From Azolla caroliniana (Eukaryota; Plantae; Polypodiophyta), in NCBI GenBank assembly GCA_043228905.1, contig JBHGNT010000007.1:3720001-3784000 (forward strand): a stretch of 64,000 bases of DNA. Direction: 5' to 3'. Under the pieces are notes generated by a model. It did no database searches. It was given only the letters and a program-made list of their open reading frames with translations, and was not told where the DNA came from. Positions 272 through 63,745 of the stretch are shown piece by piece. Numbering within the stretch: position 1 is the stretch's first letter; each line of letters begins with the position of its first letter. The position numbers were made by a program, and so were the translations under genes.

Positions 272-904
272 TGTCGTGAAGAAAATCGGCCATAGGCGGA
301 TTCGAAGAGAAAGGCGCGTGAACCGGCTCTTACACGGATGGACGCGTAACTTGATATTTTGAACCCGATTCATAAACAGATCGGTGGGTGAAATATGAGG
401 CGGCACGCATTTATCAGGGGATTGTGTGTATCTCTGTCAGACGGAGGGAAGGACAGGGAATAAAAAGGGACTTGACAAGAGAGAAGGTTATCGCGCACGA
501 GGAGGTAGAAGGAGAGGGCTGCAGAACGGAAGGAGGGAGCTCTCTCTGCGACTCGAATCGTCGCTCTCTGCGGGTGTCGAGAGGTCGCTGCCACTGCTTC
601 GTGGACAGCCCGTGTGCTTCCAACAAAGTCGTGCCCCTTCCCCTTTTGTTTCTTGGAGTCGGTGACCGTCGTCGGTGTGCGTGAGTAGGGTCCCCGTGTC
701 GGGCCCGTCGCCGCTTTGTCGGTTGTAACTGACGGAGTTTGAAATCTCTGTCATTATAATTAAGTGTTACATTCTGTTTCTCCCTTCCTCGCTTCTACGT
801 GTCGGTGAATCTTTCTCTCTCTCTGTATCTCTCTCTCTCGCTCCTCGGTCCAAGACCCCCGTGGTCCCCCCCTTTTCTACACGTACGCGCGTAATAACGC
901 GACA
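272..904 (+). repeat. 5' LTR of Gypsy element
   Basis: TG...CA termini; repeated at 5800-6432. Confidence 0.93.
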
Positions 905-910
905 TATATT

Positions 911-928
911 TGGTGAACCCGACGTGAA
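911..928 (+). promoter_or_regulatory. Primer-binding site complementary to tRNA-Trp 3' end
   Basis: TGGTGAACCCGACGTGAA is the reverse complement of the plant cytosolic tRNA-Trp 3' end as I recall it (...TTCACGTCGGGTTCACCA); it lies 6 nt after the LTR. Confidence 0.8.
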
Positions 929-951
929 AAGGGCGGCAAAGGAGTCGAAAG

Positions 952-3207: not shown

Positions 3208-5730
3208 CCAGCGTCAACGGCCGGGAGAGGAAGCGAGCGGAGGAGCGGCTCAAGGGATGCGGAGTCCTCTTCCCCGACGAAGACATCAACGGCGCCGTGG
3301 AGGCGGTCTCTTTTGATGACACCTTGGGAGAACTACGAAAGGTGATCGATGAAAACCTTAGAGAAGACCGAACCGTTCCGGTAGGATAGATGGGAATGTT
3401 CGAAGTCATCGCGGACTTCGGGGAAAGGATCGGGTCGGATCGGACGGCCCGCGTGGATACAAAATCCAAGACTGTGGACTGGAAGGTGAGGCCAGTCGCG
3501 GCACCCTTGCCGGAGGGTGGCGAGGAGCGGATGAAAGGGGTCGCGTCGGACCCAAGTTTACGGAGTCCGGCTGGCATAGGGCACTGGTTCACCGACATAA
3601 CGCTACGGGAGCTCAAGCTCGGAGGGGGCGGCTTCCTACTACCGACGGAGGAGGACCGGTTTCGGAGAATGCTCGGAAGGCACAGGAAGGCTTTCGCATT
3701 CTCACCGGAGGAGATCGGGTGCGTAGACCCGACAGTTGTCGAACCGATGGTGATCTTCACGGTACCGCATGCACTGTGGAATCTCAAGCCGATTCCGGTG
3801 CCAAGAGCTCACATCCCGAAGTTGATGGAGCTCCTAAAGCAAAAGGTGGAGATGGGCATCCTCGAACCGTCGAGTGCCTCGTATTCGAATCCGTGGTTTA
3901 CGGTGCTGAAGAAGAACGGCACGTTGCGCTTCATCCAGGACCTACAACCGGTCAACAAGGTGACCATCCGTAACGTAGGGATCGGACCGACCATAGACGA
4001 GTTCGCGGAGGCCTTCGCTGGAAGGTCGATCTATTCTGTCGGTGATCTGTACTCGGGGTACGATCAGTTCCAACTAGTTGTGGAGAGCAGAGACGGGAGG
4101 TGATTATCGAGACGGACTGCCTACCGATACTCGGCATGGTTTCCGGATGCGCGACGCCAGACCTAGCAATGCTCCGGTGGATAGCGTACATTAAGTCCCT
4201 GAACCCGGAGATACGGCACATCTCTGGAAAGGACCTAGCAATGCTTTCGAGGGCAAAGTTCAACGACGAAGACGGCATGGTTTCGGAGGACGAAGAAGTC
4301 GGCCAGGACTTCTTCGGGTCGGCTAACGTAACGACAAGAAGGAAAGGGAACACTCTGGCGCTTAACGAATTTGACGAAAGCGGGTACGACGGGGAGGGGC
4401 TCCAAATCGGGAGGTTCCTACGGACGATGACGCCGGACGCAACATGGGCGAGAGAGGAGGTGAGCCGGATAAGGAGGAAGGCATACCGATTCTTCCTGCG
4501 GGACGGGTGCATATGGAGGCACCCAAAGAAATGAAGCGTCATTCCACTCCGAGTAGTGGCAAAGAAAGAAGAACAGGGGAAACTACTGACGGCATTTCAC
4601 GAGAGCCCATGGGCCGGACACCGCGGGACGTGGGCCACTTTCAAGAAGTTGAAGGAGAAGTACTGGTGGCCGGGGCTGTACCAGGACGTGCATCGGTTCG
4701 TGACGACTTGCAAGAGCTGTCAGATGCACTCCGTAGTCCAACACCGGGACAAGCTTCACCCGACCTACCCGCCTACGGTCCATTTCAAGTGGATGGTGGA
4801 CTTGGTGACGATGCCAATGGGGCCAAGACAGATGCGATACCTGGTGCTTGCACGGGAAGACTTAACGAACCAGGTGGAAGGCCGTGCACTACAAAGCAAG
4901 ACAACCACGGCGGTATGCTGGTTCCTGATCGAAGAAGTAGTGTGTCGGTACGGGTGCGTCGGGAAGATCGTGGCGGACCGGGGAGAGCTAGATGCGCGGG
5001 AGGCCGAGGAGCTGTTCGACCGGCTGGGTCTCAAACTCTCCCTCACCATGGCGCACAATCCAGAGGTGAACGGAAAGGTGGAACGAGAGCACGGACCGAT
5101 TGTAAAGGCGTTGGTGCGTGCATGCGGTGGGCAGGTCGGGAATTGGCCGCGACTCCTTACGCGCTATGGGCGGACCGGACTACGCACAGTTCGGTGACAG
5201 GGTTTATGCCGGCGGAGCTAATGTACGGACAAAAGCCGATCATGCCGGTGGAACGGACGGTTTCTTCGTGGGCGGCGGTAGATTGGAAGGACGAAATGAG
5301 CCGGGAGGAGTTGCTGGCGGCGCGGATTCAGCAACTCGAGCGGAGGCCGGAGGACGTGATACAGGCAAGGGAAAAGCTGCGAGCAGCGAGGGAGCGTAAC
5401 AAGACCCGGTTCAACCCGACTCACCAGTTGCAACCAAAGAAGATCGAGGAAGGCGATTGGGTCTTGGTATACGACAGCAGCCTCGACAATCAGCACAAGG
5501 TGGTGCGAAAGTTTGCCAGAAGGTGGTTCGGGCCCTACATGGTGACGAGCACAAACGATAATGGCACGTACCACCTCGCGGAACTCGACGGGACACGGTT
5601 AGCGGTGCCGATGGCTGGGAAGCGGATCAAAGCTTTCAAAAAGCGGTTCAAAGACGAGCTGGAGCCTGCGAGCGCGAGCGACAGCGACGATCAGTTCGGG
5701 CCCAACGGAGAATCGGACAGCAACGAGTGA
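3162..5730 (+). pseudogene. Gypsy pol (RT N-terminus fused to RNase H C-terminus; integrase)
   Basis: YSNPWFTVLKKNGTLRFIQDLQPVN...DLYSGYDQF jumps at ~4093 to VIIETDCLPILGM, with no YxDD. Integrase H-H-C-C (HESPWAGH...CKSCQ), core DLV/DRGE/E and a GPY-like WFGPY are present; stops and frameshifts throughout. Confidence 0.88.
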
Positions 5731-5799
5731 GGCCGGTTTTCTTCGGTATCTACCTGTCTTTGGCGCATGCCGATGGATGCGCGGTTTGGTGGGGGTGGA

Positions 5800-6432
5800 T
5801 GTCGTGAAGAAAATCGGCCATAGGCGGATTCAGAGAGAAAGGCGCGTGAACCGGGTCTTACACGGATGGACGCGTAACTTGATATTTTGTACCCGATTCA
5901 TAAACGGATCGGTGGGTGCAATACGAGGCGGCACACATTTATCAGGGGATTGTGCGTATCTCTGTTAGACGGAGGGGAGGACAGGGAATAAAAAGGGACT
6001 TGACAAGAGAGAAGGTTATCACGCGTGAGGAGGTAGAAGGAGAGGGCTGCAGAACGGAAGGAGGGAGCTCTCTCTGCGACTCGAATCGTCGCTCTCTCCG
6101 GGTGTCGGGAGGTCGCTGCCTCTGCTTCGTGGACAGCCTGTGTGCTTCCAACAGAGTCGCGCCCCTTCCCCTTTTGTTTCTTGGAGTCGGTGACCGTCGT
6201 CGGTGTGCGTGAGTAGGGTCCCCGTGTCGGGCCCGTCGCCGCTTTGTCGGTTGTAACTAACGGAGTTTGTAATCTCTGTCATTATAATTAAGTGTTACGT
6301 TCTGTTTCTCCCTTCCTCGCTTCTACGTGTCGGTGAATCTTTCTCTCTCTCTGTATCTCTCTCTCTCGCTCCTCGGTCCAAGACCCCCGTGGTCCCGCCC
6401 CTTTCTACACGTACACGCGTAATAACGCGACA
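5800..6432 (+). repeat. 3' LTR of Gypsy element
   Basis: Copy of 272-904. Confidence 0.93.
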
Positions 6433-6768
6433 ACGGCTATTTGCCATAATTGTATCTGATACACTGCAGTATGATTAATTACTTAAATAACCTCCAACTT
6501 CCCTCCTTAACCTCCTCTATCTCTCTCCTTATATAGGTGTTCTTCGGTGCACTCCTTCTCCTTCCGTGTTTATGGTTGTGTGTATTTCGGCTGCTTCTTA
6601 TTGCTTTCGGTTGTTTACCTACTGCTACCTAATACTTATTACGTTTCACATATGTTACTATTTTGGCACGCCCGTGCGATAGTGCCTCGGCACGGTGAAC
6701 CCAAAAAATCAAAATACACAATTCGTAACAAACGAAAATTTCAAAAAAGAATTTGGTATAATTTACAA

Positions 6769-8083
6769 TTAATCCTCGAGCAAAATGTCGAGGATTCCCT
6801 CTGCCTGCTTTGTCTCGGCGGTATCATCTCTTGGAATGGTCGCGGGGTTGGGTCGTGGTGCGTTGGTTTGTTTGGCCGAAATTTCTATTGCAAGCTCTGT
6901 CCTGTCGTTGCTCTGTAATGTCGGGTCGGATGGGGTGTGGTTGTCCGACTGTATTTGTTGGTCGTTGACTGCGTCCAGTTGGGGTTGGGCGTTATCGTTG
7001 AAGGTGTACTCTGTTTCGATCATCAACAACATTTGATCATCGTTGAATTCCTCAAGGAGGGTGCCGATGGCTTTGGTGTGGGCATCGTCTAAGGCATGAA
7101 AGTCCTCAGTAAGGTCTTCTCGGGTCATTTGTATGCTATTGCCATCCATCTTGTAGAAGCCTTTTCCTTCTTTCTTGCGGTTTTCAGCATCTGCCCGTAG
7201 GACTTGCAATTCCTGCTTGAGCCGACCATTGCTTCCAACCTGTAGCTAGTGTTTCCTCGACCTTTCTATTTAATTTTTGCCGCTGCTTCATGACTAACGC
7301 ATGGATGCGTTCCTCCCGTTTGTTGTACATTCTTTGAAGAGCCAACATCTCTTGCTTGGTTTTTTCTATGTCGAGCCATAATTTTGCCGTAAGAATTTCG
7401 CAAGATGTGTTGAGGGAATTGACCCTGGGCGCTGCTTCCTCCATTATTCTGTCGATTTGTTGGCCAAACTGTGTTTGAACCTCTACCAATTCTTTTCGGT
7501 TCTTTTCTTTCCTCTATTCACGTTCTAGGATACTATTTATTTGGTGTCGGTGGAGCTCGTCAAATAGCCCGATGCGTTTGTTTTCAGCGTCTTCGTATTG
7601 TTGCAAAAATCGTCTTGAGCGCACTTGCATTTCCATGCAATTTGTGCGGCGGCAATGTCCTGTATGGACATAATAGAGTCGGCCGCTTTCTTTTCTGCCT
7701 CCTTGACCTTAACCGTCTGTTCGTGTAGTGCTTTCGTCAATTCGGCTTCCGTGTGCATGGCTTGCTCCTTGCTTTTGACGGCCTCCGTTTGGGCGTGCTC
7801 GTAGCATTCTTTCGCTATTTCTGCAATGGCCTTGTGCACGATGATGTCTTCTTCGTAATGGCGAATGGTTTCGCCAATATCCTTGACCTTAGCCGTCTGT
7901 TCGTGTAGTGCTTTCGTCAATTCGGCTTCCGTGTGCATGGCTTGCTCCTTGCTTTTGACGGCCTCCGTTTGGGCGTGCTCGTAGCATTCTTTCGCTATTT
8001 CTGCAATGGCCTTGTGCACGATGATGTCTTCTTCGTAATGGCGAATGGTTTCGCCAATATCCTTGACCTTAGCCGTCTGTTCG
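6769..8083 (-). pseudogene. Disrupted coiled-coil ORF of unknown family (probably TE accessory ORF)
   Basis: ORFs 7537-8019, 7184-7489 and 6769-7209 join through frameshifts and one stop into more than 400 aa of E/K/A/Q-rich helical sequence with an acidic tail. The 5' part is replaced by a Copia fragment. Confidence 0.5.
7700..8083. repeat. 180-bp tandem repeat (about 2.1 copies, 60-aa unit)
   Basis: Sequence lines 7741-7920 and 7921-8083 are essentially identical; period 180. Confidence 0.95.
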
Positions 8084-17767: not shown

Positions 17768-20700
17768 TGAAAGAGTTTCACTCCGATTCGAAATCAGAAA
17801 TTGAACTTAGACGCAAACAGAAATGAGAAAGAACACACAATTTACGTGGAAAACCCTGATTCAGGGAAAAAACCACGGGACAGAGATTTCACTATGAGAA
17901 ATGACAGAATACAATCACAGAACAATGAAACCTGATTTGGTATGAGCATATACTGAAACCACGATTTCAGTCAAGCTCTTCAAACTCTAGCACGCATGCG
18001 ACTATTCCTTTCGAAGCTTTCGAAGCTTCTCTGTCTTTTCTCTTTTGCTTCACACTTCTTTTCTTCTTACTTAGCTTCTGAGTACGTATACTCTTGCACA
18101 GCCACCACTGTGCAGAAAACCAGTCGTTCTCAGATTTACAACGCACACACAACTCGTTTTCCTCTCATATATATATATCTCACACCCTCACATACGCTAT
18201 GTAGGTTTTCCCCCTTTTCTCACTATTTCACTCTTAGTGAGTTATCCCACATACGGGCGCACTACCAGGCCTGTCAGCATATATATACTAGGTCATTATC
18301 TTCTTTGTATGTAGAAGACATATGTATATGTATATGTGTGTCAATTCGATTGAGTACGAATTTGACTCTCTCACCGAATTCGATCAGCTAACCCCCCGAT
18401 TCGGTTCTTCGCAACTGACTATCTTTTGCTTTCCGAATTTCGACCAAATTCGGTAAATCGGTTTTTCGGCCGATTTCAATAATTCGACTCTTTTCGGCTT
18501 TTCGGCCGATTTCGACCAGTCGACACTCAAGTCGACTTTTCGGCCGACTCCCCCGCAAGGAGGGACGCCTTTACACAACAAACTCCCCCTTCACTCCTGT
18601 AGGGGGAGAACCAATCAAGCCAATCTTATTCCTGCACGCAACAAGTTTTTCCATAGGCAAAACTTTTGTGAGCATGTCTGAGCCATTTTCTTCAGTGGGG
18701 ATCTTAGATAGAACAAACTCATTTTCTTCCACTCTTTCTCTTAACCAATGGTACCTTCTTTGAATGTGCTTTGTACGAGAGTGGTAGGTAGCATTTTTAG
18801 CCAGATGGATAGCACTTTGATTGTCACAATGAAGTAAGTACTTGTCTTGCTTCAATCCTAGTTCATTCAAGAACTCTCTCATCCAAATTAGTTCTTTTCC
18901 GGCTTCCACTGCAGCCATATACTCAGCCTCGGTGGTAGACAAAGCCACAACCTTTTGCAATCTTGATTGCCATGACACAGCTCCCCCTGAATACATCATC
19001 ACATACCCTGATGTGGATCGGCTAGAATCTACATCACCCGACATGTCAGAATCTGTAAAACCTTCTAGTACAGGTTTCCCGGAGCCATATCTAAGACATA
19101 CATTCGAAGTTCCCTTGAGGTATCTAAGAATCCATTTCACAGCTTCCCAATGCTCCCTTCCAGGATTTCCCATGTATCTACTAACTGTCCCGACAGCGAA
19201 TGCAATGTCCGGCCTTGTGCAAACCATAGCATACATAAGGCTACCAACCGCAGAGGCATACGGCACTCTTCTCATCTCTGCCTTATCTTTCTCAGATTTC
19301 GGACATTGTCCTGAATTTAACTTACAGTCCATTGGCAATGGAGATCCGACTGATTTTGCATCGCGCATATTAAACCTTTGCAAAACTTTTGTCACGTATT
19401 TCTCTTGTGACAGCCATAGCAAGTTTTCAGTCCTGTCCCGGACTATATGCATTCCCAAAATCTGTTTTGCCGGTCCTAAGTCTTTCATGGCAAATGATTT
19501 GCTCAATGATTTCTTCAAGCTTGCAATCTTTTTGACATCCTGTCCAACAACCAACATATCATCCACATACAACAACAGAATAAGAAAGTCACCCTCATTA
19601 TACCTTTTCACAAATACACAATGATCGGCTTGTGTTTTGTGGAATCCATGTTCCAACATGAAGGACTCAAATTTCTTATACCATTGTCGTGGAGCTTGCT
19701 TTAAACCATACAAGCTTTTCTTCAACCTACACACGAGATTTTCTTTTCCTTTTACCTCAAAGCCCTCCGGTTGTTGCATATAGATTTCCTCTTCTAGCTC
19801 ACCATGCAAGAAGGCTGTTTTAACATCTAGTTGTTCGATTTCAAGATTCATACTAGCTGCCATACTCAAGACAGTCCGAATAGAGGTCATTTTTACAACT
19901 GGGGCAAAAATCTCATCGAAGTCAACACCCTTTTTCTGTTGGAAACCCTTTACGACGATACGGGCCTTATACCTGGGTGTACTACCATCTTCACCAGTCT
20001 TTAATTTGTAGACCCATTTGTTTCTAAGTGCCTTCTTACCATCAGGCAACTCCATCAACTCATAAGTTAGGTTCTCATGCAAGGAATCCATTTCTTCTTG
20101 CATGGCATTATACCATTTCTCCTTGTGTGCATCAGTCATGGCCTCTTCATAGCATTCTGGTTCCCCTTCATCAGTCAAGAGAACATATTGACTGGCTGGA
20201 TATCTAGAAGAGACCTTCCTTTGTCTTCGTGGATATCTTCTCCCTTCAATAATTGGCTGATGGCCGTTTTCTTCCAGCAACTCATCTTCCGACTCAGACT
20301 CGTGTGTGTCAGTCAGATGTTGGGTGTCGACCGACTCAGATTGTTGTTGGGTATCGACCGACTCAAATTCAATTTCATTAGCCGATTGTTGTGTGTGAGT
20401 CGGATCGACTAGTATTGACTCCATAGCAGTGATCGATTTGGGAGACAACTCTGGTCTTTGTTGCTCCCAGTCCTCGATTGTCTTGTCTTCCATGAATATG
20501 ACATCTCGACTTCTTATCACTTTCTTGTCAAGGAGATCCCACATTCTGTACCCGAACTCGTCTTCCGAGTACCCCAGGAATATACAAGGTTTGGACTTGC
20601 TGTCCAGTTTTGACCTCTGATCTTTAGCAACATGTACATAGGCCAAACATCCAAACACCTTTAAGTGCTGATAAGACACATTTCTCCTTGTCCACACTCT

Positions 20701-23448
20701 TTGTGGTACATCCCCCTTCAAAGGCACTGATGGAGACCTGTTTATGAGATAAACAGCAGTCAACATTGCTTCAGCCCAATATGATTTTGGCAATTTTGCA
20801 TGTGCCAACATGCTTCTTACCCTTTCCATTATGGTCCGATTCATTCTTTCTGCTAGACCATTTAGCTCAGGTGTCTTCGGCACCGTATACTCAAGTTTGA
20901 TGCCTTGAGTCTTGCAATACATTTCAAATTGGCCTCTATATTCGCCACCGTTATCTGTCCGGACAGCCTTCAGCTTTTGTCCGGATTCTCTTTCTGCCCT
21001 GGCATGAAACTCTTTAAAGACCGACAACACTTGGTCTTTAGACACCAGCACATAAGCCCACACTTTCCTACTAAAGTCATCAATAAATGTGACAAAGTAT
21101 TGTCCTCCACGATGAGATGGGGCATCAACATAACATACATCGGTGTGCACCAACTCTAAGGCATGCTCTCTCCTCATTGGAGGCCTAGAGTGAAACGCTG
21201 TTCTATTTTGCTTTCCAGCGAGGCAATCCACACACCTTTCCAAATGCACTCCTTTCACCTCTGGTAGGAAATCCTTTTCCGCAAGGATATGCATTCCCCT
21301 TTCACTCATATGTCCGAGCCTTTTATGCCACAACTCACCATCTGAGCCAGCCACTACATTTGCTTCCTCTCGACACAACTTCCCATGCATTACATACAAT
21401 GTGTTCTGTTTTTGGGCTCGAGCCACGATCAGGCTCCCTTTACAGAACTTCCATGAACCATTTTGGAAGCCACCGCTGTACCCTTCATCGTCTAGCCGTC
21501 CAGCCGATATCAAGTTCAACCTGACATCCGGAACATGACGTACATCCTTCAACATTAACCTGCAGCCTGTAGATGTTAGCAAGCACACAGTTCCTATGCC
21601 CACAATCTTGCATTCCCCGTCATTTCCCATCTTTACATGACCATAGTCACCCGCTGTGTAGGATGAGAAACATTCTCTTTTGGGAGTTAGGTGAAATGAT
21701 GCACCGGAATCCACTACCCATGAGCTCTCAGCACTTGCAAGATTCACACTATCTTGTTCACATATGAACAACATCTCTTCCTCACTAGTTGCGATGGCTG
21801 AGGTATTTTTATCATCGGAGATTTTTCTAGGTTCGGTCTCATCAGCCATGCCTTTGTCCTTCCTAAGATGTCGACAATTCTTTTGGAAATGACCAGGCTT
21901 CCCACAATAAAAACATGTTGGTCTTCCTCTAGATTTCGACCTAAACCTATCCCCATTTTCTAGACTTCTATGTTCTCTTCTACCTCTACTAAATTCTTGG
22001 GTCACATTAGCCTCCGATTGAGATAAAGTACTTTTATCCTTTCTTCTTGTCTCTTCATTTAGAATACTCGTTTTTACTACTTGCAAGGATAAGTTGTCTT
22101 CTTTACATGAAGTGCTGAGTGTTACTATTAGGTTTTCCCAACTATCGGGTAGAGTACATAATAATAGTGTGGCCTGCATACAATCATCTAGTGGGAACTT
22201 TGATGATGCTAATTGATTCACTAGTCCCATAAACACACTAATGTGCTCTACTATACTCTCCCCATCTACATACTTCAGTCTCACTATCTTCCTCATCAAG
22301 AAGGTCTTATTTAAGGCATTTTTCCTTTCATAGAGGGCGGAAAGCTTATGCCATAGCTCGAAGGCATTTGTGTCACTCGCTACATGTTGTAGGACACTAA
22401 TGTCTACACATTGTCTTATGGTCGCCACTGCCTTCCTATTTAGGATTCTCCACTCCGAATCTATTACCCCCTTTGGTATATCCTTGTTTTCTATGGGCTC
22501 ATACAAGTCTTTTACTATTAGGAGATCTTCCATTTTGATCTTCCAATCTGAATAGTTCTGTGCGTTCAAGACAATCATCCCAGGAAAACCACTCACGCTC
22601 CCTTCCATCTAGAACCTTCCGCTCTGATACCAGTTTGAAAGAGTTTCACTCCGATTCGAAATCAGAAATTGAACTTAGACGCAAACAGAAATGAGAAAGA
22701 ACACACAATTTACGTGGAAAACCCTGATTCAGGGAAAAAACCACGGGACAGAGATTTCACTATGAGAAATGACAGAATACAATCACAGAACAATGAAACC
22801 TGATTTGGTATGAGCATATACTGAAACCACAATTTCAGTCAAGCTCTTCAAACTCTAGCACGCATGCGACTATTCCTTTCGAAGCTTCCGAAGCTTCTCT
22901 GTCTTTTCTCTTTTGCTTCACACTTCTTTTCTTCTTACTTAGCTTCTGAGTACGTATACTCTTGCACAGCCACCACTGTGCAGAAAACCAGTCGTTCTCA
23001 GATTTACAACGCACACACAACTCGTTTTCCTCTCATATATATATATCTCACACCCTCACATACGCTATGTAGGTTTTCCCCCTTTTCTCACTATTTCACT
23101 CTTAGTGAGTTATCCCACATACGGGCGCACTACCAGGCCTGTCAGCATATATATACTAGGTCATTATCTTCTTTGTATGTAGAAGACATATGTATATGTA
23201 TATGTGTGTCAATTCGATTGAGTACGAATTTGACTCTCTCACCGAATTCGATCAGCTAACCCCCCGATTCGGTTCTTCGCAACTGACTATCTTTTGCTTT
23301 CCGAATTTCGACCAAATTCGGTAAATCGGTTTTTCGGCCGATTTCAATAATTCGACTCTTTTCGGCTTTTCGGCCGATTTCGACCAGTCGACACTCAAGT
23401 CGACTTTTCGGCCGACTCCCCCGCAAGGAGGGACGCCTTTACACAACA
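17768..23448 (-). mobile_element. Intact Ty1/Copia element (Tnt1/Tork-like)
   Basis: 813-bp LTRs 17768-18580 and 22636-23448 with 2 differences seen. TSD CTTGC both sides, PBS TGGTATCAGAGC (22621-22632), PPT at 18581-18590, single uninterrupted ORF. Confidence 0.97.
18571..22608 (-). CDS. Copia Gag-Pol polyprotein (1345 aa)
   Basis: CFYCGKPGHFQKNC knuckle, VVDSGAS protease, integrase D-D-E (HTDVC/RTDNGGEY/AERMN), RT LYVDDML, RNase H DSD...DNQSA. Confidence 0.97.
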   Translation of the reverse strand: MEGSVSGFPGMIVLNAQNYSDWKIKMEDLLIVKDLYEPIENKDIPKGVIDSEWRILNRKAVATIRQCVDISVLQHVASDTNAFELWHKLSALYERKNALNKTFLMRKIVRLKYVDGESIVEHISVFMGLVNQLASSKFPLDDCMQATLLLCTLPDSWENLIVTLSTSCKEDNLSLQVVKTSILNEETRRKDKSTLSQSEANVTQEFSRGRREHRSLENGDRFRSKSRGRPTCFYCGKPGHFQKNCRHLRKDKGMADETEPRKISDDKNTSAIATSEEEMLFICEQDSVNLASAESSWVVDSGASFHLTPKRECFSSYTAGDYGHVKMGNDGECKIVGIGTVCLLTSTGCRLMLKDVRHVPDVRLNLISAGRLDDEGYSGGFQNGSWKFCKGSLIVARAQKQNTLYVMHGKLCREEANVVAGSDGELWHKRLGHMSERGMHILAEKDFLPEVKGVHLERCVDCLAGKQNRTAFHSRPPMRREHALELVHTDVCYVDAPSHRGGQYFVTFIDDFSRKVWAYVLVSKDQVLSVFKEFHARAERESGQKLKAVRTDNGGEYRGQFEMYCKTQGIKLEYTVPKTPELNGLAERMNRTIMERVRSMLAHAKLPKSYWAEAMLTAVYLINRSPSVPLKGDVPQRVWTRRNVSYQHLKVFGCLAYVHVAKDQRSKLDSKSKPCIFLGYSEDEFGYRMWDLLDKKVIRSRDVIFMEDKTIEDWEQQRPELSPKSITAMESILVDPTHTQQSANEIEFESVDTQQQSESVDTQHLTDTHESESEDELLEENGHQPIIEGRRYPRRQRKVSSRYPASQYVLLTDEGEPECYEEAMTDAHKEKWYNAMQEEMDSLHENLTYELMELPDGKKALRNKWVYKLKTGEDGSTPRYKARIVVKGFQQKKGVDFDEIFAPVVKMTSIRTVLSMAASMNLEIEQLDVKTAFLHGELEEEIYMQQPEGFEVKGKENLVCRLKKSLYGLKQAPRQWYKKFESFMLEHGFHKTQADHCVFVKRYNEGDFLILLLYVDDMLVVGQDVKKIASLKKSLSKSFAMKDLGPAKQILGMHIVRDRTENLLWLSQEKYVTKVLQRFNMRDAKSVGSPLPMDCKLNSGQCPKSEKDKAEMRRVPYASAVGSLMYAMVCTRPDIAFAVGTVSRYMGNPGREHWEAVKWILRYLKGTSNVCLRYGSGKPVLEGFTDSDMSGDVDSSRSTSGYVMMYSGGAVSWQSRLQKVVALSTTEAEYMAAVEAGKELIWMREFLNELGLKQDKYLLHCDNQSAIHLAKNATYHSRTKHIQRRYHWLRERVEENEFVLSKIPTEENGSDMLTKVLPMEKLVACRNKIGLIGSPPTGVKGEFVV

Positions 23449-53307: not shown

Positions 53308-53343
<36 letters not shown>

Positions 53344-53347
<4 letters not shown>

Positions 53348-53533
53348 ATTACCTTACCCTAGTGGTAAGTTGTTGACACTACAAGCACTGCATCATATGG
53401 GTTCAAAACCCAATTTCCTCACCTCTCTATTATATACTTCATATACTCTTAATTCTCTAGATGCCACTGTGGAATGTAGGGGTTGAACCCATGACCACCT
53501 GGTCTCCATTGGGCAACCATACCAACTGAGCTA

Positions 53534-53537
<4 letters not shown>
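53344..53537. mobile_element. tRNA-derived short element with two convergent A/B-box units, inside (CT)n
   Basis: (CT)n at 53311-53344 and 53537-53586. Plus strand TACCCTAGTGG...GGTTCAAAACCC; minus strand TAGCTCAGTTGG...GGTTCAACCCC. Confidence 0.75.
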
Positions 53538-53590
<53 letters not shown>

Positions 53591-54890: not shown

Positions 54891-55110
54891 CCAGACGTCA
54901 TTTTATTAATGAATTGCATAGTAGTATGTAATTTGTATGCGTTTGCTCCTTCTTTCTTCTTTTTAATGATGTTTTTGCCCAATGTGTTGCTATTATCATC
55001 ATCATCATCATCATTATTATTATTGCAAGTCCTTTTTTCATTTTCGTTTTGCAATGAATATTCATTCATTCTAATGTTAACGTCGAACGACTCAGAACTC
55101 GTCTTCTCCG

Positions 55111-55320
55111 TCCATGTCCATGTCCATGCCTATGCCCATGTCCATGTCCATGTCCATGCCTATGCCCATGTCCATGTCCATGTCCATGCCTATGCCCATG
55201 TCCATGTCCATGCCCATGCCTATGCCCATGCCCATGCCCATGCCCATGTCCATGTCCATGCCCATGTCCATGCCCATGCCCATGCCCATGTCCATGTCCA
55301 TGCCCATGCCCATGCCCATG
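55111..55320. repeat. (YCCATG)n hexamer array, 35 units, with 30-bp higher-order period
   Basis: TCCATG/CCCATG/CCTATG units; only about 6 units at the paralogous position 16838-16878. Confidence 0.95.
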
Positions 55321-56310
55321 TGTATATGTGTGTGTTATTCGTAAATTGTCTGACCTCCTTGTCTCTCTATATTTGTGCCTACTGTTTTTTGGGGTTTGTA
55401 TGACTCTTCCGTCACACACACTTCACAACACATGTTACAATCGGCCATTTCATCAAAAACCCCTCCGCATCAATATCTACTTCAATAGCTCATAATTTGA
55501 TTGAGGTGGATACTAGGAATTTCAAACTCTTGACCATCACAAAGAGACAAGATTGTGTACTGAATAACCTTCGCCTCTATTATGGTGCGACTAGACACAT
55601 TGTTTGTGTTTAGTCCATGAAGGGGTAACCAAAGGGGGACATCGGCATTTGGTTTTAGTGGACATCACTAACCACGAGGGAAAAGATATGTCAAATTGTA
55701 GTAGGTGCCCTACATTTGGACATCATACATAAAAACCATTGTAGATACATACTCTTCCCTACTTGGGGCTATGATCGTTTTCTTTAGGGCCTATCTTCAT
55801 TTTCTTTAGGGCCTATACTAGGTTGCTTCCCCATTCATTCCGTCCTCCGTAAAGATTATTTGAGCTAATGCATCCATCACTCTTATACGTACTAACTAGC
55901 TTACCTAGTATGATGCTCCCAAGGCGGCTTCTTTATGTAATTATGCTCATTACAAGTGTATTTCACCTATATTTCTTTATATTTTTAAAAAACCCTAATC
56001 ATGCTAAGAAAACTAATGAGTTGACATGTTGATCAATCTATTGGTAGGAATTATGGTTTATTTGTAGAGCTCTTCATAAGTTTTGCCCCATATACACATA
56101 ATTTATGATGATACATACATACATACATAGAAGCTCATTCATATTAAACCCTTCTCGCACTTTCAAAGAAGTATTTGGCGACTTTCATAATTTCAAAGCA
56201 GCAGTGTCGCGAATCGATCGATTCTCTATGTTTCTCCCCACTCTCCTGTGTGTAATGAAAGCTCACCTCGCTTCCGGATCCCTGGATCAGGAAAGAGTGA
56301 AGAGGAAGCC

Positions 56311-58882
56311 ATGGAAGTCTTGAAGAGATTTGGCCAGCCTCCATCTCGCAAGGAAAACTGGGGCTTCTTCTTCTCCACTGATAACAATGGAAGGTCAGAG
56401 AGACGTATTATAAACTCTAAGGAAACTATAAAATATGTGTGTCCGAAGGTCAATCATTCTAGTAAGTGTTCCTTCTCTGATGTATAATCTCGAATGTGCT
56501 TGTATGTATATGTATGTACATATTTCTGCTCGTTCATGCAACTATGAAACACCCCTGAGTCTGTCTTTATTTCGTTAAATGTCTCTATGCTTCTGATATC
56601 TTCTCAACAATGATCTTGGTGAAACATGATCAAGAAATTATAGGTACCATATTTGACCAATTTTATGTCAATTCATCCCTTTCCCTGCAATTATATGTGC
56701 GATTTGGGCTAGGATATGCTCAATTAGTTCCTTTTTTCTTTCTTTTGGGATTGAACAGCGCACTTTTTGGAAATAACATAAACTTTGGAGCATTCATAGG
56801 GATATTTTATAGTTTTTCCCTATATATAGTATGAGAAATTTGTTTTACCTCCCCAATAAATTTGATGTTGTATTTTGGTCTATTATGGTAACCTGGTGGC
56901 GCTTGCTACTCAACCCAAGCACAATCCTTTTGTAGTTAGTTGATTTACTATTGTGGCACCACCCACCCATTAGTATGGTAAACTAACATTTCTTCACTAT
57001 TGCGGCATCGCATCACTGCCTTTTCAACTAAGCACAGTGATACTTTTATGAATTTATTTGCAGTTGCTCTCATAGTAAGTTGAATTACGATTGAACACTA
57101 TCAATGAATCCTACCAAGGTACTTGTTTTTTCAGTACTATTTTGCCTTGTCTCTTTCAATTTAGGAAGACCTCTATACACATGAACCCTAGAAAGAATTA
57201 ACCCTTCTTCAATGTGGATGGGCAATTAGGATATTCATTTAAAGATTCATACATAACTGGTTGTTCAACTGTAAATTACATTGCTCTAAGTATAGAATTT
57301 TGTCTCTGTAGGTTTTGTTCAAATTGTTTGTTTGATTTCACACACAAAGAAACTTCTTGAATTTGTTTTTTACATCAGATGAGATCATGTTACATAAATT
57401 CTGATTTCTAATGATTCTGTTTACATGTTTTTACCTTCTCTCTCAGGTGGAAATTTTATTGTTGAACTTGTTTGCTTACAAGAGATTACGTAGTTATGCT
57501 TGAACTGAGTGCCCATGCTAATACAAAAGGCAATTTCCCACTATGATGGTATTTCTGCTTTTGAAGATCTTCAAGCCATTTGTAAGAAGCAAAATGTCAA
57601 GAAGGCTATTTTTCATGCAGCAGGAAGGAATTCCTCTCCCAGAAGATATTGTTTGCTCCCTTATTGAGAATTGCACAAGAAAGAGGGATATTATATCAGG
57701 TAAGAAACTGCAACTTCTATTATGAAAAGATGAACTCAATCCCCCTACATCTGTGGTGGGTGACCACCTTATACGTTTTTTTGCATCTTCTAATAATTTG
57801 CAAAATGCAAGCAAGGTTTTTTCTAGTATCTCTAAACCAACAATTTACACATGGAATGCAATCATCACAGCACATTCAAACCTCAATTGTAATAAAGAAG
57901 CTCTTCAGTTATATGAGAAAGTGCTACATTCTGGTATCAACCCAGATAAGTTTACGTTTCTTCCAGTGTTAAGAGTATGTTGTAATGCAACCACCATCAG
58001 TAAGGGTAGATTAATACATGATCAGATCATTAGAAGTGTCCTAGAGCTAGATGCATGCCAAATCCGAGAATTTAGATGAGGCATGTAATTTGCATAAAAC
58101 CTTGCCTGATAGGGATGTTAGATCATGGGCTATACTAATTTCAGGATATTCCCAGCATGACTGTCCGCACTTAGTTAGCTCTTGACTTCTTTGAGAAAAT
58201 GCTGAAGGATGGTATAGAGCCAGACAATCATTTGATTTCATGTACTTTAAAATCATGTGCTAGTGCTGCTGCATTGCAAAATGGAAGATTGCTACACATT
58301 CATATCATAAAGCCTGGGCTCAAAACTGATGCAATCATTGGAGGTAGTCTCGTGGACATGTATGTGAAATTTGGGAATTTAGTGGACCGGTGGGATACCC
58401 TGAACACCATACATCCTCAAGATGTTGTCTCATGGAATGCGTTAATTTCAGTTTATGCACAACATTGAGAGTATACATTAGCTCAAGAATGTCTTCAAGC
58501 AATGCAAGCTCAGGGTTTGAAGCCAGATAGCACAACTTACATTAGTATACTTGCAGCATGTAGCCATGTGGGAACAGTGGAAGATGGTCATTGGTACTTC
58601 ACATCTATGGTGAGAGATCACATCACACCAAATGTAGAGCATTTCAATTGCATGATTGACCTTCTTGGTCGTTCTGGCTACTTAAATGACGCACTAAAGT
58701 TGTTCAGCTCAATTCCTATCGTAATTATCACTACTGGATGGACATCTCTACTTGCTGCATGTAGAAAATTTGCTATGCTGATTTTGGGTTGTGGGAACAT
58801 GTGGAGGAACTGTGGCAGCAGTAATACCACATGGAAAAACAAAAAATCTTGGAGAGAGGATGATGATATATATCATATATGA
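56311..58882 (+). pseudogene. PLS-class PPR-E pseudogene copy B (candidate exon 1 at 56311-56461, exon 2 from 57447)
   Basis: Paralog of 24021-26178 with stops, a ~635-bp deletion at ~58056 and a ~90-bp deletion at ~58770; donor A|GTAAGT at 56462, acceptor TCTCAG at 57446. Confidence 0.85.
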
Positions 58883-59751
58883 TCCAGTAAGGCATCTGTA
58901 CCCCAACCATTGAGTTGGTTCATTGGATCCATCAATACCATTGTGTTTCATATTTTTTGGCTTAAAGTGGAACTTCTGAGTTGGAGAAATTGCTCAAGTA
59001 ACAAAGATATTCTCCATTTTTTTAATATATCAGAAATGATGTGAAGTTTCAAATGAACGAGTTAGCAATGATGCCCTTCTCTATGGTGTGGAAGTTAAAT
59101 GAAGCTTATTACTTTCCCAAGCTTCTCTCTTGTAGGGACTATTACCCTAGATGACCAATATATGATTTATTGAGTATAAAGATGACTGGAATTATCCTTA
59201 TAGATGATAGTGAGGAATTGATATTGGCAAACAAAAAATGGAGGCGTATTATTATGGTTCATGATCATGGTATTTCCAAACTATAGTTAACATAGCACAA
59301 ATGGCTATGAAAAACAGTCTAGCAAGAACTTTCTTTGGTGGCAGACATTTATGCTTAAATGATGAAAATAAATGGGAGGGCAGAAAACTTATATAATGTA
59401 AAAACCACCTAATACATTGTGCCACATAAACATGCATATTAGATTTGAAACTAGGCAAACAACATAAACGTATAGTAAGCAAGCATTTACTTTTGCAAAC
59501 TTTGAGAATTAAGAGTTTCACATATTTTGGCACTACCATTGAGAGGACCAAATGGTTTCTCATTGGCGTTTGCTTCTTCTTCTTTATGATGTTTAGGCCG
59601 CAATGGGTTCTCATTATCATCATCATCATTATTATTATTATTATTGTATCTCCATTTGTCTTTTTCGTTTTGCAATGAATATTCGGTCATTCTAATGTTA
59701 ACGATTCAGAACTCGTCTTTGCCATTCATGCCCATGTTTGTGTGTGTGTTC

Positions 59752-59925
59752 ATCAAAGATTACTCAGTATCTTCACCAAATCGGCTTTCGAATGTTGGAG
59801 TTGGATAACGCCCTTTACGTAAGAGAATCATGTACGTGGATGATCTAGTAATTGGAGGAGAGAATCTAACTGATATCAATAAGGTTATCCCTCTTGTCCG
59901 GCACCTTCGAAATGAAAGACATGCA
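59752..59925 (+). mobile_element. Isolated Copia RT fragment
   Basis: Translates KITQYLHQIGFRM...YVDDLVIGGENLTDINKV...FEMKDM, matching RT at 30175-30921. Confidence 0.8.
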
Positions 59926-60258
59926 AATGGAAGGATCACGCATTCCACTTATAGATTCCTTTTATACTCTTGCGATTTTAGGCAGTTTCCAAAAACTTGA
60001 TACACTAGCATATAAAATGTTTAAACATTTAAATGCGTAAACGTTGATAGTTTGTAGATATGAAATGTAGTTAACTTAAAGAGAATCACAATGGTTAACT
60101 CAAGGCACAAGTTAAGATTAATTGTTTCATTATCTTGATGAGATGAGGTTCAAGAAGTGGATGTGGCATATATTGTTAGACGTAAAAAATGTTTTAAGTA
60201 TAAGAGTTAACATTATAATCTTTATTGTCATCATTTATAAATTTAGTGCTCATCAACG

Positions 60259-60410
60259 TCCATAAATTCACAACTCAAGAAATGTAGACAATATTCATAA
60301 ATAGTTTTGATAAATTCACAACTCCAAAAATGTTGACAATAAAGTCCATAAATTCACAATTCAAGAAAAGTTTTGATAAATTTACAACTCCAAAAATGTT
60401 GACAATATTA
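60259..60410. repeat. Imperfect tandem repeats of ATAAATTCACAACTC...AATGTTGACAAT
   Basis: Core at ~60262, 60310, 60348 and 60376. Confidence 0.75.
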
Positions 60411-60459: not shown

Positions 60460-60990
60460 TCACATAGTTATCAGGGTATCCAAACTGCTCTCCCCTTCTT
60501 CTTTTTGAGAACTCCCCTACAAAATTTGTGCAGTAGTATCTACTCCACCTAGGCTAGCAATGATTGATTCCTCAAATAGCTTCCTAGGTTCACCAGCGAA
60601 TGGAGGAATAGGTTCATGGGATGCACATTGAAAATGTTAAGGCTTTAATCTTTATGTTAATGAAACTCACTTGCTCATCATCCTTTTTATGCGCAACAAT
60701 ATTTCTAAATAGCTTCAATGTAGACGCAGATGTAGTACACATTAACAATTTGAAATGAAGATTGCTTTAGCTAAACATAAACTATATTGATTTCGAAAGG
60801 CATAGCAAACAAAGTCATAACAATTTACCGGAGCCGAAGAACAAATCTAGTATCCAATCTCCTTTATTGAAGAACATTTCAAATAACAAATATTAGACTA
60901 GGCTAGTTTTGTAAATAGCAAAAAGGGTAGTTGGTATTTAAACCAACCTTTTGTAACTTAGTTACTGTTGGATGTATTTCTTGTCTTGTC
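60460..60990 (-). pseudogene. Relic of N4-cytosine/N6-adenine DNA methyltransferase (beta-class, N6_N4_Mtase-like) C-terminal half
   Basis: Manual translation: ...KTSLV*YLLFEMFFNKGDWILDLFFGSG (to 60829), 90-nt GT-starting gap (60828-60739), then TTSASTLKLFRNIVAHKKDDEQVSFINIKIKAL. This fits the pattern GDxVLDPFxGSGTTxxAAxxLGRxxIGxExD. Catalytic (D/S)PPY not seen. Confidence 0.65.
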
Positions 60991-61350: not shown

Positions 61351-61558
61351 CTTATCGTAATTAGCTTACCCTAGTGGTGAGTCGATAACACTACAAGCAC
61401 TGTGTCTTAGGTTCGAAACCCAATTTCCTCACCTCTCTATTATATACTTCATATGTATCTCTATTTCACTAGATGCCACTGTGGAATGTAGGGGTTGAAC
61501 CCATGACCACCTGGTCTCCATTGGGCAACCTTACCAACTGAGCTACATCCATCTGGGC
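61347..61558. mobile_element. tRNA-derived short element with two convergent A/B-box units, inside (CT)n
   Basis: (CT)n at 61316-61346 and 61558-61577. Plus strand A box 61367-61377 and B box 61410-61421; minus strand A box 61545-61534 and B box 61501-61491. Confidence 0.78.
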
Positions 61559-61579: not shown

Positions 61580-62460
61580 CCATAAATCAATGTTTACTAT
61601 TAAAACAAGATGATAATACAACCCTTGCTATCTTCACTACTTCATAAATAGTGATAGTGCAAGGGAAACCCTCTCAAGTGTTGTAAAACTAGATGACATA
61701 AGTCTATCTCCTCTTAGGACAATATCCCCATACAACATAGTTGTGAAAATTGCCAAATCAATTTCCCTTTCATCCTACGAAGTTGTTGTGTTATCCCATG
61801 AAGTCCATCAAACAAGAACTCATTTCTCATGGTCCAATTAAACCACATCCCCCAATATCTAAGGTAATTAAAAACCACCTTATACGATGGTGTGGGCATA
61901 ACTTTATCCTCATCCATAAAAACCCATTTATAAGGTGACAAAATCTTTCCTGTTATCAATGCCCAAATTTGTGACATAATCACCCAAATGGCCTTAGCAA
62001 CCGAACATGTAATGAACCTATGTCTGGCATCTTCTTCAACCACTGTACAGAAAAAACATATCCCATTCGAAATATGTCTTCGTTTTAAAGTCATCGCCAA
62101 AGGCAACCCACCAACTATGGCACACCAAAGAAACACCTTTGCACAAAATGGAAGATGAGACTGCCACCCTGTACTAAAACTCTACACTACCACTTTACAT
62201 TTCTAGTAATGCTCCATGTATCCAACACCTTATTTGCTAACAAAGCTCTATCTTCAACCAACTTATGGTACACATAATTAGTGTGCACCACATAAATCGC
62301 TTTCCCATTACCAAATGACCAATCTTTCCATGCTTCCTCGACCACCAACTCTAGAATTGGGGAAACTAATCTAGGCAATGCCAATATTGATTGCCAAATA
62401 TACCCATATCCACGTGGTATATGAAACTTATTTCTGATTGTTCGAATGACTATCATTTTC
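61580..62460 (-). mobile_element. L1-type LINE 3' end (zf-RVT region and 3' UTR)
   Basis: KVFLWCAIVGGLPL...CFFCTVVEEDARHRFITCSVAKAIW...WFNWTMRNEFLF. Confidence 0.8.
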
Positions 62461-62464
62461 CTAT

Positions 62465-63745
62465 AAGGTGCACTTGGCTGATGGAAGAGTACAATACATC
62501 AATGGGGCGATTTATTCATTAGGAATTTCTATTAATACTTATATAGAGGAAGTAGACTTCCATATAATGAATCTTTGTACCACTTATGTAATACTGGGTT
62601 ATCCCTGGTTTTACAATAAAAACTCTTCTTTATCTATTGATTGGGTTCACCATTCCATTACCTTTGTATTGGACGATTGTACTTATTTTATTCTCCATCA
62701 ATTGTTTCCTCTTCATCTTTCAATTGTTTCCTCTCCATCAATATCCGAGTTATCTTGTTCTTCTTTATTTTATTGTGTACTTGATCCGAACATTCACATT
62801 TATAATATCGATAGTGCCTCGGGTCATTTACCATATTTTGAACAACTCAATGAATCTTAAATTATTTTCGTGATGTTTTTCCAAGTGAACTACCACATGG
62901 GTTACCTCCTAAACGTAATATAGACCATCGTATAGATATTGTACTTGGCGTTGCACCAATAAGTATACCTCTGTATCGCTTAAGTCGATCTGAAGAGGAT
63001 GAGGTATCTAAGCAACTCACGAACTATTTACAAATGGGTTATATACGTTATAGTATATCTCCATGGGGTGCACCTATTCTCTTGGTAAAAAAGAAAGAGG
63101 GCACATGGCGTATGTGTATTAATTACCAACGCTTAAATAAAGTGACAATCAAGAATTAATATCCATTGCCCCAGGTTGACAATCTGATTAACTGTCTCCA
63201 AGGAGCTCGATATTTTACGAAACTTTATCTCTATATAGGCTACCATCAAATTCGTATAACTGAGGAAGATGTTCCTAAAACGGCATTTCGTGCATGCTAT
63301 GGCCATTATGAGTTTCTGGTCATGCCTTTCGTTTTGACCAATGCTCCGGCCACATTTCAACAAGAAATGAATTACATTTTCCGAGAACAATTTGGAAAAT
63401 TTGTCGTTATTTTCTTGGATGATATTCTAGTTTATAGTCGTACATTAGAAGAACATGCTAAACATGTCCGCTTCGTTTTACAAACATTGAGTGACAAGAA
63501 ATTCTATGCGAAGATCTCAAAATGCGAGTTCTTCAAGAAATCAATTACTTATCTTGGACATCTCATAACCAAACGAGTTGAAATTGATCCTTCTTGCATC
63601 GAGAAAGTCAAACTTTGGCCCACTCTTTGGAATATTTGAGAAGTTCGATCATTCCTTGGTTTTGTCAAGTTTTTGCGAAAATCTCTTCATAATTACTCCC
63701 AATTGACAACGTCATTTACTGATCTTCTCAAAGGTCAAACGCGTT
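62465..63745 (+). mobile_element. Decayed Ty3/Gypsy pol fragment (protease end and RT)
   Basis: [71 protein letters not shown]; stops and frameshifts; no LTR seen. Confidence 0.88.

What the first reader, a model, noticed from the sequence alone, without database searches (positions are those of the whole stretch)
60460..60990. Hidden intron-containing relic of a bacterial-type N4-C/N6-A DNA methyltransferase
Seen: the minus strand, not covered by the ORF track, reads HPTVTKLQK...(frameshift)...KTSLV*YLLFEMFFNKGDWILDLFFGSG. A 90-nt AT-rich gap starting GTAAAT splits the Gly codon, and the reading resumes TTSASTLKLFRNIVAHKKDDEQVSFINIKIKAL, followed by a frameshifted acidic tail. Knowledge: this is the SAM-binding motif I region that lies C-terminal in beta-class amino-MTases (N6_N4_Mtase family). 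Such enzymes are rare in eukaryotes; 4mC writers of bacterial origin are known from bdelloid rotifers and Marchantia sperm. Inference: a eukaryotised (spliced) amino-MTase family exists in this genome, possibly transposon-borne given the adjacent short tandem repeats, and intact copies elsewhere could write 4mC or 6mA. This copy is dead: it has a stop and frameshifts, the acceptor AG is missing and the catalytic motif is not visible.
Basis: partly seen in the sequence, partly recalled or inferred. Interest (0 to 1): 0.85.

Follow-up and report, generated by a model that had tools for sequence, protein, structure and literature searches.

The report
Dead plant transposon's DNA methyltransferase tail
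This is the broken tail end of a gene carried by a many-copy plant jumping gene, likely of a fern. Intact relatives encode a conserved bacterial-type DNA methyltransferase that is predicted to bind a row of palindromes in the element and likely puts methyl-adenine on its own DNA.

Summary
The fragment is real. It holds the SAM-binding end of a beta-class amino-methyltransferase (Pfam PF01555), split by a 90-nt phase-1 intron. The intron is GT-AG in 23 of the 24 related loci where both flanks were found (of 46).

It is not a host gene. It is the right-hand 970 bp of a non-autonomous cut-and-paste transposon. A near-complete 8.6-kb relative (L008) has inverted ends, a DUF7869 (Sola-like) transposase, a phased palindrome array and, head-to-head, a spliced gene with a weakly supported ParB-like domain plus the methyltransferase. 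Intact copies show dN/dS under 0.09 and the catalytic motif DIPY (19 of 21), not the SPPY of Marchantia and rotifer 4mC enzymes, so 6mA is likelier.

This copy has lost its first ~870 codons, the acceptor AG, 56 and 21 nt, and the tip of its inverted end. One correction: 'HPTVTKLQK' and 'KTSLV*' are not methyltransferase sequence. They belong to an unrelated repeat abutting the fragment.

The same architecture is published for a brown-algal Sola1 element; my searches found no land-plant report. The scan already noted this family many times elsewhere in this genome. Activity and target are untested.

The parts
60894..60976 (.). It has hairpins and a CTAG near 60897 on the minus strand, so a Helitron-like end is a guess only.
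   Evidence: Summed contig depth about 15,000-96,000 vs 600-5,000 over the fragment in run X1; loose ends with variable flanks at 60897-60899 and 60976; no homology to close relatives beyond 60893
60884..60893 (-). Remnant of intron 3, fused to the middle of exon D by an internal deletion typical of this non-autonomous subfamily
   Evidence: Same fusion in L039, L041, L043, L046; 4 contigs of run X4 continue past 60893 with that intron sequence
60829..60883 (-). 3' end of exon D: FEMFFNKGDWILDLFFGS-G, SAM-binding motif I (family: IEMFSNEGDWILDLFSGT-G)
   Evidence: Pfam PF01555; tblastn with intact exon
60739..60828 (-). 90-nt phase-1 intron; GT donor kept, acceptor AG changed to GT
   Evidence: GT-AG at this position in 23 of 24 scorable loci, 82-94 nt; AG in L039, L041, L046; the A and G alleles each in 6-11 contigs per run in 4 of 4 runs
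60460..60738 (-). Last exon E: end of the methyltransferase fold plus acidic tail, up to the natural stop. It carries a 56-nt frameshifting deletion at 60638/60637, a 21-nt deletion near 60580 and a TAG at 60519-60517.
   Evidence: the 56-nt deletion is shared with L041, L043, L044, L046
59943..60459 (-). 3' non-coding part of the element, with short degenerate tandem repeats (about 60213-60407)
   Evidence: Aligns to L041, L044, L046 at 72-77% including gaps; repeats
59924..59942 (-). Inner 19 nt of the right terminal inverted repeat; the outer 14 nt are missing here
   Evidence: Conserved end followed by unrelated flanks across the related loci; left-end match in L008 and L046; missing tip not found elsewhere in the window at <=2 mismatches

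Best explanation
The stretch is the dead right-hand end of a non-autonomous copy of a plant DNA transposon, likely Sola-like, whose intact relatives carry a spliced bacterial-type amino-methyltransferase gene that likely marks the element's own DNA with methyl-adenine through a predicted ParB-like domain and a palindrome array.

Shown by sequence: intact elements have inverted ends, a DUF7869 transposase and an array of TCGATAC-N3-GTATCGA palindromes spaced mostly 32 or 40-41 bp. The methyltransferase gene is read in the opposite direction and is under strong purifying selection. This copy belongs to a subfamily of internally deleted derivatives and was further cut at both ends.

Inferred: the N-terminal domain is ParB-like and binds the phased palindromes; the methyltransferase (motif IV DIPY, motif I FSGTG, beta order) writes 6mA nearby; the mark helps the element stay transcribed or mobile against host 5mC silencing; deleted derivatives were moved in trans because they kept the ends and, in L046 and L039, the array.
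For: - Homology and intron. Ceratopteris gene models read through the spliced joint as FSGTG-TTLAC.
- Multi-copy: 20-36 contigs of run X1 carry variant alleles at single positions of the fragment; 46 related loci.
- Element anatomy: L008 has both inverted ends, an 829-codon open frame matching PF25273 at E=1.8e-53, 10 palindromes, then the gene. L046 is a 3.6-kb derivative of the window's subfamily with both ends, a transposase remnant and 10 palindromes.
- Flanks after the right end differ between loci.
- Methyltransferase: PF01555 41.8 bits, above the 26.7 cut-off. DIPY aligns to CcrM DPPY ahead of motif I. DIPY in 19 of the 21 loci where the motif was found.
- Selection: 17 loci (14 distinct sequences) have open exons C-E of identical length; pN <= 0.064 in all 91 pairs; dN/dS 0.008-0.088 where dS is estimable and above 0.1.
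- Subfamily: the window groups with L039, L041-L044 and L046, apart from intact copies (95/100, 99 columns only).
- Precedent: PMC12477816 and 10.1101/2025.02.11.637652.
Against: - No activity, target base, binding or expression was observed.
- ParB support is weak: no Pfam hit, PHROG ParB-like E=0.11, no PDB sequence hit at E<=10. ESM Atlas points to fungal DUF3723 rather than a named ParB.
- DIPY departs from the usual DPPY, and PF01555 enzymes have switched between 6mA and 4mC repeatedly (PMC8885841).
- CpG observed/expected in intact elements (0.70-0.98) lies inside the range of the window's LTR elements (0.50-1.18), so there is no sign of escape from 5mC.
- All 46 loci come from one series of ENA assemblies with unnamed hosts and include duplicates.
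- No target-site duplication could be read.
- The window holds none of the palindromes.
Confidence: 0.6

Rival explanations
1. Same transposon origin, but the family protein is a catalytically weak or dead methyltransferase fold that acts as a sequence-specific binder or scaffold at the palindromes (VANC-like anti-silencing factor or transposition helper), with no new DNA mark.
For: Motif IV is DIPY rather than DPPY. Purifying selection covers the whole protein, including the N-terminal domain (91% mean column identity). The Iyer review calls DIRS1-borne methyltransferase domains likely inactive (PMC4738411).
Against: Asp, Pro and Tyr of motif IV and motif I are both kept in beta order across copies whose synonymous sites are saturated.
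Confidence: 0.2
2. The intact enzyme writes 4mC rather than 6mA, for example at the TCGA in the palindrome, and so parallels the Marchantia and bdelloid enzymes.
For: PF01555 covers both chemistries. The palindrome contains TCGA twice. The bdelloid enzyme's closest bacterial relatives include TCGA-specific N4C enzymes (PMC8885841).
Against: The known eukaryotic 4mC writers have SPPY or TSPPY. The named best matches among solved structures are adenine enzymes (CcrM, MboIIA, RsrI, DpnA), though all are weak (E 0.003-0.5).
Confidence: 0.15
3. Pseudogene of a domesticated host methyltransferase gene, like Marchantia DN4MT1, with no transposon role.
For: Two Ceratopteris genes are annotated as ordinary protein-coding models. 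Spliceosomal introns and low dN/dS also fit host genes.
Against: This copy runs into a terminal inverted repeat shared with a transposase-bearing element, the flanks are unrelated between loci, and derivatives carry both ends.
Confidence: 0.04
4. Chance reading or bacterial contamination.
For: The window's own Pfam score is below the cut-off.
Against: E=3.5e-22 to intact relatives; conserved GT-AG intron; plant PPR and LTR context; the best phage matches are only 26-43% identical.
Confidence: 0.01

Closest known systems
Accessory gene of Ectocarpus Sola1-1_Ec32 (PMC12477816; passages read)
   Same: A ParB-like domain plus an N4C/N6A methyltransferase, about 1,100 aa, on the strand opposite the transposase of a Sola1 element; the authors propose self-binding and self-modification.
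   Different: Brown alga, 21.5-kb element. The passages read mention no palindrome array, introns, selection or catalytic motif. Sequence relationship to the plant family was not tested (sequence not in hand).
Plavaka accessory genes PAG2/PAG3 of red algae (10.1101/2025.02.11.637652; passages read)
   Same: A transposon-borne PF01555 methylase, a ParB-like domain, and tandem arrays of inverted repeats proposed as its binding sites.
   Different: EnSpm/Plavaka transposase. The methylase is fused to SET and ParB to a 2OG oxygenase, in separate genes; here the two appear fused in one gene.
Beta-class amino-methyltransferases, PF01555 (CcrM, M.RsrI, M.MboIIA)
   Same: Motif IV before motif I; aligned residues at both motifs; above the Pfam cut-off in intact copies.
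   Different: DIPY for DPPY, spliceosomal introns, a long N-terminal extension and an acidic tail; only weak sequence similarity.
Marchantia DN4MT1a/b and bdelloid N4CMT (10.1101/2021.02.12.428880, passages and part 2 of the main text; PMC8885841 and PMC10406627, passages)
   Same: Bacterial-type amino-methyltransferases in eukaryotes; N4CMT is PF01555, beta order and has introns.
   Different: They are host genes with TSPPY or SPPY and shown 4mC activity. This family is transposon cargo with DIPY. No direct sequence comparison was possible.
DAM-carrying DIRS/LTR retrotransposons (10.64898/2026.05.21.726589; abstract and part 1 of 3 of Results)
   Same: Transposons carrying prokaryote-like adenine methyltransferases, with raised 6mA on the elements.
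   Different: Retrotransposons and a DAM domain as the authors name it; the parts read mention no ParB or palindrome array.

Membership tests
Beta-class amino-MTase (PF01555) | Profile score above the Pfam gathering cut-off | tested here: met
   Intact relatives 34-41.8 bits vs 26.7. The window fragment alone scores 19.2, below the cut-off.
Beta-class amino-MTase (PF01555) | Motif IV (D/N/S)PP(Y/F) N-terminal to motif I FxGxG | tested here: inconclusive
   Order met; the motif is the variant DIPY in 19 of 21 loci. Motif IV is absent from the window copy.
Beta-class amino-MTase (PF01555) | Rossmann-type fold | tested here: inconclusive
   Single-sequence AlphaFold model pLDDT 33.5. ESM Atlas features of homologue P0009 give PF01555 in all top clusters; structure TM by query <= 0.39.
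Beta-class amino-MTase (PF01555) | Methyl transfer to adenine or cytosine N | not testable with these tools
   Needs assay.
Eukaryotic 4mC writers (DN4MT1, N4CMT) | SPPY catalytic motif | tested here: not met
   0 of 21 loci; DIPY 19, DIPH 1, DIAY 1.
Sola DNA transposons | DDD transposase | tested here: inconclusive
   The L008 frame matches DUF7869 at E=1.8e-53 and shows DGMDQ, DN..ENKN and GHTHxxID motifs. That these are Sola motifs is recalled, and also stated in earlier scan notes; no Sola reference sequence was compared.
Sola DNA transposons | Terminal inverted repeats; size mostly 2-9 kb (PMC10741241) | tested here: met
   26 bp of perfect match seen between the L008 ends (the contig starts inside the left repeat; about 33 bp inferred); element about 8.6 kb.
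Sola DNA transposons | 4-bp target-site duplication (AWWT for Sola1, PMC3845634) | tested here: inconclusive
   No locus has both flanks. The right flank begins TT in 17 of 19 loci, which does not obviously fit AWWT unless the terminus is drawn differently.
ParB + amino-MTase transposon accessory proteins (Sola1-1_Ec32 type) | ParB-like N-terminal domain | tested here: inconclusive
   PHROG ParB-like E=0.11; the IGGSHS motif resembles the ParB GxxR motif (recalled); Pfam and PDB blank; model pLDDT 37.9.
ParB + amino-MTase transposon accessory proteins (Sola1-1_Ec32 type) | Gene on the strand opposite the transposase inside one element | tested here: met
   L008: transposase 387-2873 (-), array 3657-4052, gene 4441-7706 (+), right end near 8627.

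The most novel reading that the evidence does not exclude
Ferns, and perhaps other seed-free plants, harbour an abundant, long-conserved DNA transposon family that runs its own epigenetic system. A ParB-like reader docks on helically phased palindromes in the element and a fused bacterial-type enzyme writes 6mA (or 4mC) there. This would be a sequence-targeted, non-5mC mark in a land-plant genome, which deleted derivatives such as this subfamily exploit in trans.
Probability: 0.4. Interest if true: 0.85.

Novelty: new member of a known kind. Interest (0 to 1): 0.55.

Why it matters
The copy itself is inert. The family matters because genuine 6mA in land plants is disputed, and one review notes few N6A methyltransferases there (PMC4738411). 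This gives a concrete candidate enzyme, a candidate binding site and a predicted location for the mark, all testable with long-read data and a simple expression assay. It also extends to vascular plants a self-modifying transposon design so far described in algae and only as a prediction.

Tried and rejected
- No whole genome was held, so copy number and target-site duplications could not be counted.
- Word-indexed protein searches for longer relatives found nothing; this is weak evidence.
- No RNA holder was listed among 11 runs; this is no evidence on expression.
- Alignment A2 misaligned non-overlapping fragments and was discarded.
- Both AlphaFold models were too poor to use (pLDDT 33.5 and 37.9), so no fold search was run.
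- The CpG/CHG depletion test did not separate intact elements from LTR elements.
- pN/pS of the window against three subfamily copies was about 0.4-0.55, on only 8-14 differences each: suggestive of relaxed selection, not conclusive.
- Phage and viral searches gave only distant stand-alone methylases (4 records at 26-43%; 1 of 63 candidates at 36%), so no donor is named.
- I first took HPTVTKLQK for the family's YPAVTRKLRH, with a 14-nt deletion explaining the frameshift, and rejected this.
- The original Sola paper was not held. References 50-51 of PMC12477816 were not seen (one search showed 53-76). bioRxiv supplements were closed, and the Ectocarpus and Bostrychia supplements, which were not seen, may list plant relatives.
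- Literature searches (listings only, except the papers cited) showed no description of this family in ferns. Subscription journals and Repbase are not covered.

Full report
Setting. The window is plant nuclear DNA: Copia and Gypsy frames, PPR genes and CT microsatellites. The only named relative among the 13 hits of the productive protein search is a Ceratopteris richardii gene model, so the host is likely a fern; this is an inference.

Observation. On the minus strand, FEMFFNKGDWILDLFFGSG and TTSASTLKLFRNIVAHKKDDEQVSFINIKIKAL share one frame across a 90-nt insert, 60828-60739, that splits a Gly codon. Read through with X, the stretch hits PF01555 at E=0.0012, 19.2 bits, below the 26.7 cut-off. 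A search of 1.84 billion representatives gave 6 hits, all short unnamed ENA frames of the same family. One of them fetched 46 loci from metagenome-type assemblies (46 of 342 candidates). These come from one accession series and include duplicates, so they are not independent samples.

The intron. Both flanking motifs could be located in 24 of the 46 loci. Of these, 23 have GT and AG at the same phase-1 position, with lengths of 82-94 nt; by eye these are 17 of 18 distinct intron sequences. The close relatives L039, L041 and L046 keep AG; L043 and L044 do not. In four public DNA runs the A and G alleles stand in 6-11 contigs each, and in three of the four runs most of the laid depth does not show them. 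The loss is therefore shared with many copies. The Ceratopteris model P0013 reads FSGTG-TTLAC across the joint (its paralogue P0024 reads the same); these are gene predictions, not transcripts seen here.

What the window holds. Against the exons of intact L005, the window matches only the last 1.2 exons (E=3.5e-22) and nothing of the N-terminal or catalytic exons. Its lesions are a 56-nt frameshifting deletion shared with L041, L043, L044 and L046, a 21-nt deletion, a TAG at 60519-60517 and the lost acceptor. The reading ends at the family's own stop, 60462-60460. A 99-column tree groups the window with L039, L041-L044 and L046, apart from the intact copies (95/100); the nearest is L043 at 92% (38 distinct rows).

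Homology to the close relatives stops at 60893. In L039, L041, L043 and L046 an internal deletion fuses intron 3 to the middle of exon D, and the window keeps 10 nt of that intron remnant. Four contigs of run X4 continue past 60893 with the same intron sequence. Beyond lies a repeat of much higher summed depth with variable flanks at 60897-60899 and 60976. HPTVTKLQK and KTSLV* are therefore foreign DNA.

The element. Downstream, the window follows L041 and L046 to 59924. There the related loci share a conserved end, after which their flanks differ; the window lacks the last 14 nt of it, which were not found elsewhere in the window. L008 begins with the reverse complement of this end, 26 bp matching perfectly. 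It then carries an 829-codon frame on the minus strand (PF25273/DUF7869, E=1.8e-53), ten TCGATAC-N3-GTATCGA palindromes at 3657-4052, the methyltransferase gene on the plus strand and the right end near 8627. Palindrome spacings are mostly 32 or 40-41 bp in L006, L008 and L014, close to three and four helical turns. Palindromes occur in 14 of 46 loci and not in the window. L046 is a 3.6-kb derivative with both ends, a transposase remnant, the array and a broken methyltransferase. No locus shows both flanks, so the target-site duplication is unknown. The Sola label rests on recalled motifs and earlier scan notes; size and inverted ends fit the description in PMC10741241 (passage).

The intact protein. 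Its exons give an N-terminal region of about 560 residues, a short exon, the catalytic exon, exon D and exon E. PF01555 scores 41.8 bits. DIPY aligns to the DPPY of CcrM ahead of motif I, the beta order (E=0.003). The motif pattern was found in 21 of 46 loci: DIPY 19, DIPH 1, DIAY 1; L046 reads DIVY and was missed by the pattern. Seventeen loci (14 distinct) have open exons C-E of identical length, with pN at most 0.064 in all 91 pairs, synonymous sites often saturated, and dN/dS 0.008-0.088 where dS is estimable and above 0.1. The ParB reading is weak: PHROG E=0.11, ESM Atlas hits to DUF3723 clusters at 0.96, blanks in Pfam and PDB and an unusable model.

Mechanism. Shown: transposon cargo, conserved catalytic and SAM motifs, long purifying selection, a phased palindrome array between the two genes. 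Inferred: the N-terminal domain binds the array, the enzyme writes 6mA there, and the mark favours transcription or mobility; deleted copies are moved in trans. I put this at 0.6, a binding-only role at 0.2 and 4mC at 0.15. A CpG-depletion test gave no support for escape from 5mC.

What is known. [quoted passage not shown] The Bostrychia preprint (passages) describes a PF01555 gene, a ParB gene and inverted-repeat arrays in Plavaka elements. Marchantia DN4MT1 has TSPPY and bdelloid N4CMT has SPPY, so this family is not filed with them. Eight paper searches listed no fern description. The scan's own notes record this family repeatedly in this genome (217 notes fit 'methyltransferase', 8 shown). 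They gave me the ParB, palindrome and Sola leads and three papers, and are not counted as support.

Verdict. This is an ordinary dead fragment of an unusual family: a new land-plant member of a kind described in algae, with a directly testable prediction. Interest 0.55.

Noticed in passing
window 54939-55124 and 59566-59738: Two direct copies of a ~180-bp sequence (about 86% alike; the first runs into a long CCATGC/CCATGT array at 55110-55321) flank about 4.4 kb that holds a broken PPR gene at ~57760-58790. It could be a mobile unit or a duplication carrying a PPR copy.
   Followed up: no
window 60894-60976: Very abundant short repeat with two hairpins; other copies carry about 14 nt more at 60927/60928, completing an AGGGCA/TGCCCT hairpin. 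Class unknown; Helitron-like end is a guess.
   Followed up: partly
window 53343-53542 and 61355-61554: Two copies of a very high-depth ~200-bp repeat bounded by CT microsatellites; possibly a SINE- or MITE-like element.
   Followed up: no
window 18574-22608 (-): Uninterrupted 1,345-codon Copia polyprotein frame, with a 36-bp tandem repeat recurring at 18458 and 23326, suggesting a young element with LTRs.
   Followed up: no
window 61600-62200 (-) and 63085-63640 (+): LINE 3' remnant (zf-RVT) and a Gypsy reverse-transcriptase remnant upstream of the finding.
   Followed up: no
L020 177-1756: A right terminus of one copy is followed by a palindrome array and a methyltransferase gene with a large in-frame internal deletion joining exon A to exon D: a second kind of deleted derivative.
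   Followed up: no
L002, L014, L008 and L046 arrays: The palindrome differs by subfamily in its 3-nt centre and outer arms (AACTCGATAC with ATT/AAT or GGC/GCC centres; AATTCGATAC with TGA/CGA centres), while the TCGATAC core is fixed. This might track changes in the binding domain.
   Followed up: no
P0023 (Logan): A distant homologue (44-46% identity) reads through the last-intron position without an insert, so it is either a spliced transcript or an intronless lineage.
   Followed up: no
L003 1253-2074 and L027 578-1009: Element copies lie next to a plant-type short-chain dehydrogenase gene and a UTP13 exon, showing that these 'metagenome' contigs are eukaryotic host nuclear DNA.
   Followed up: no
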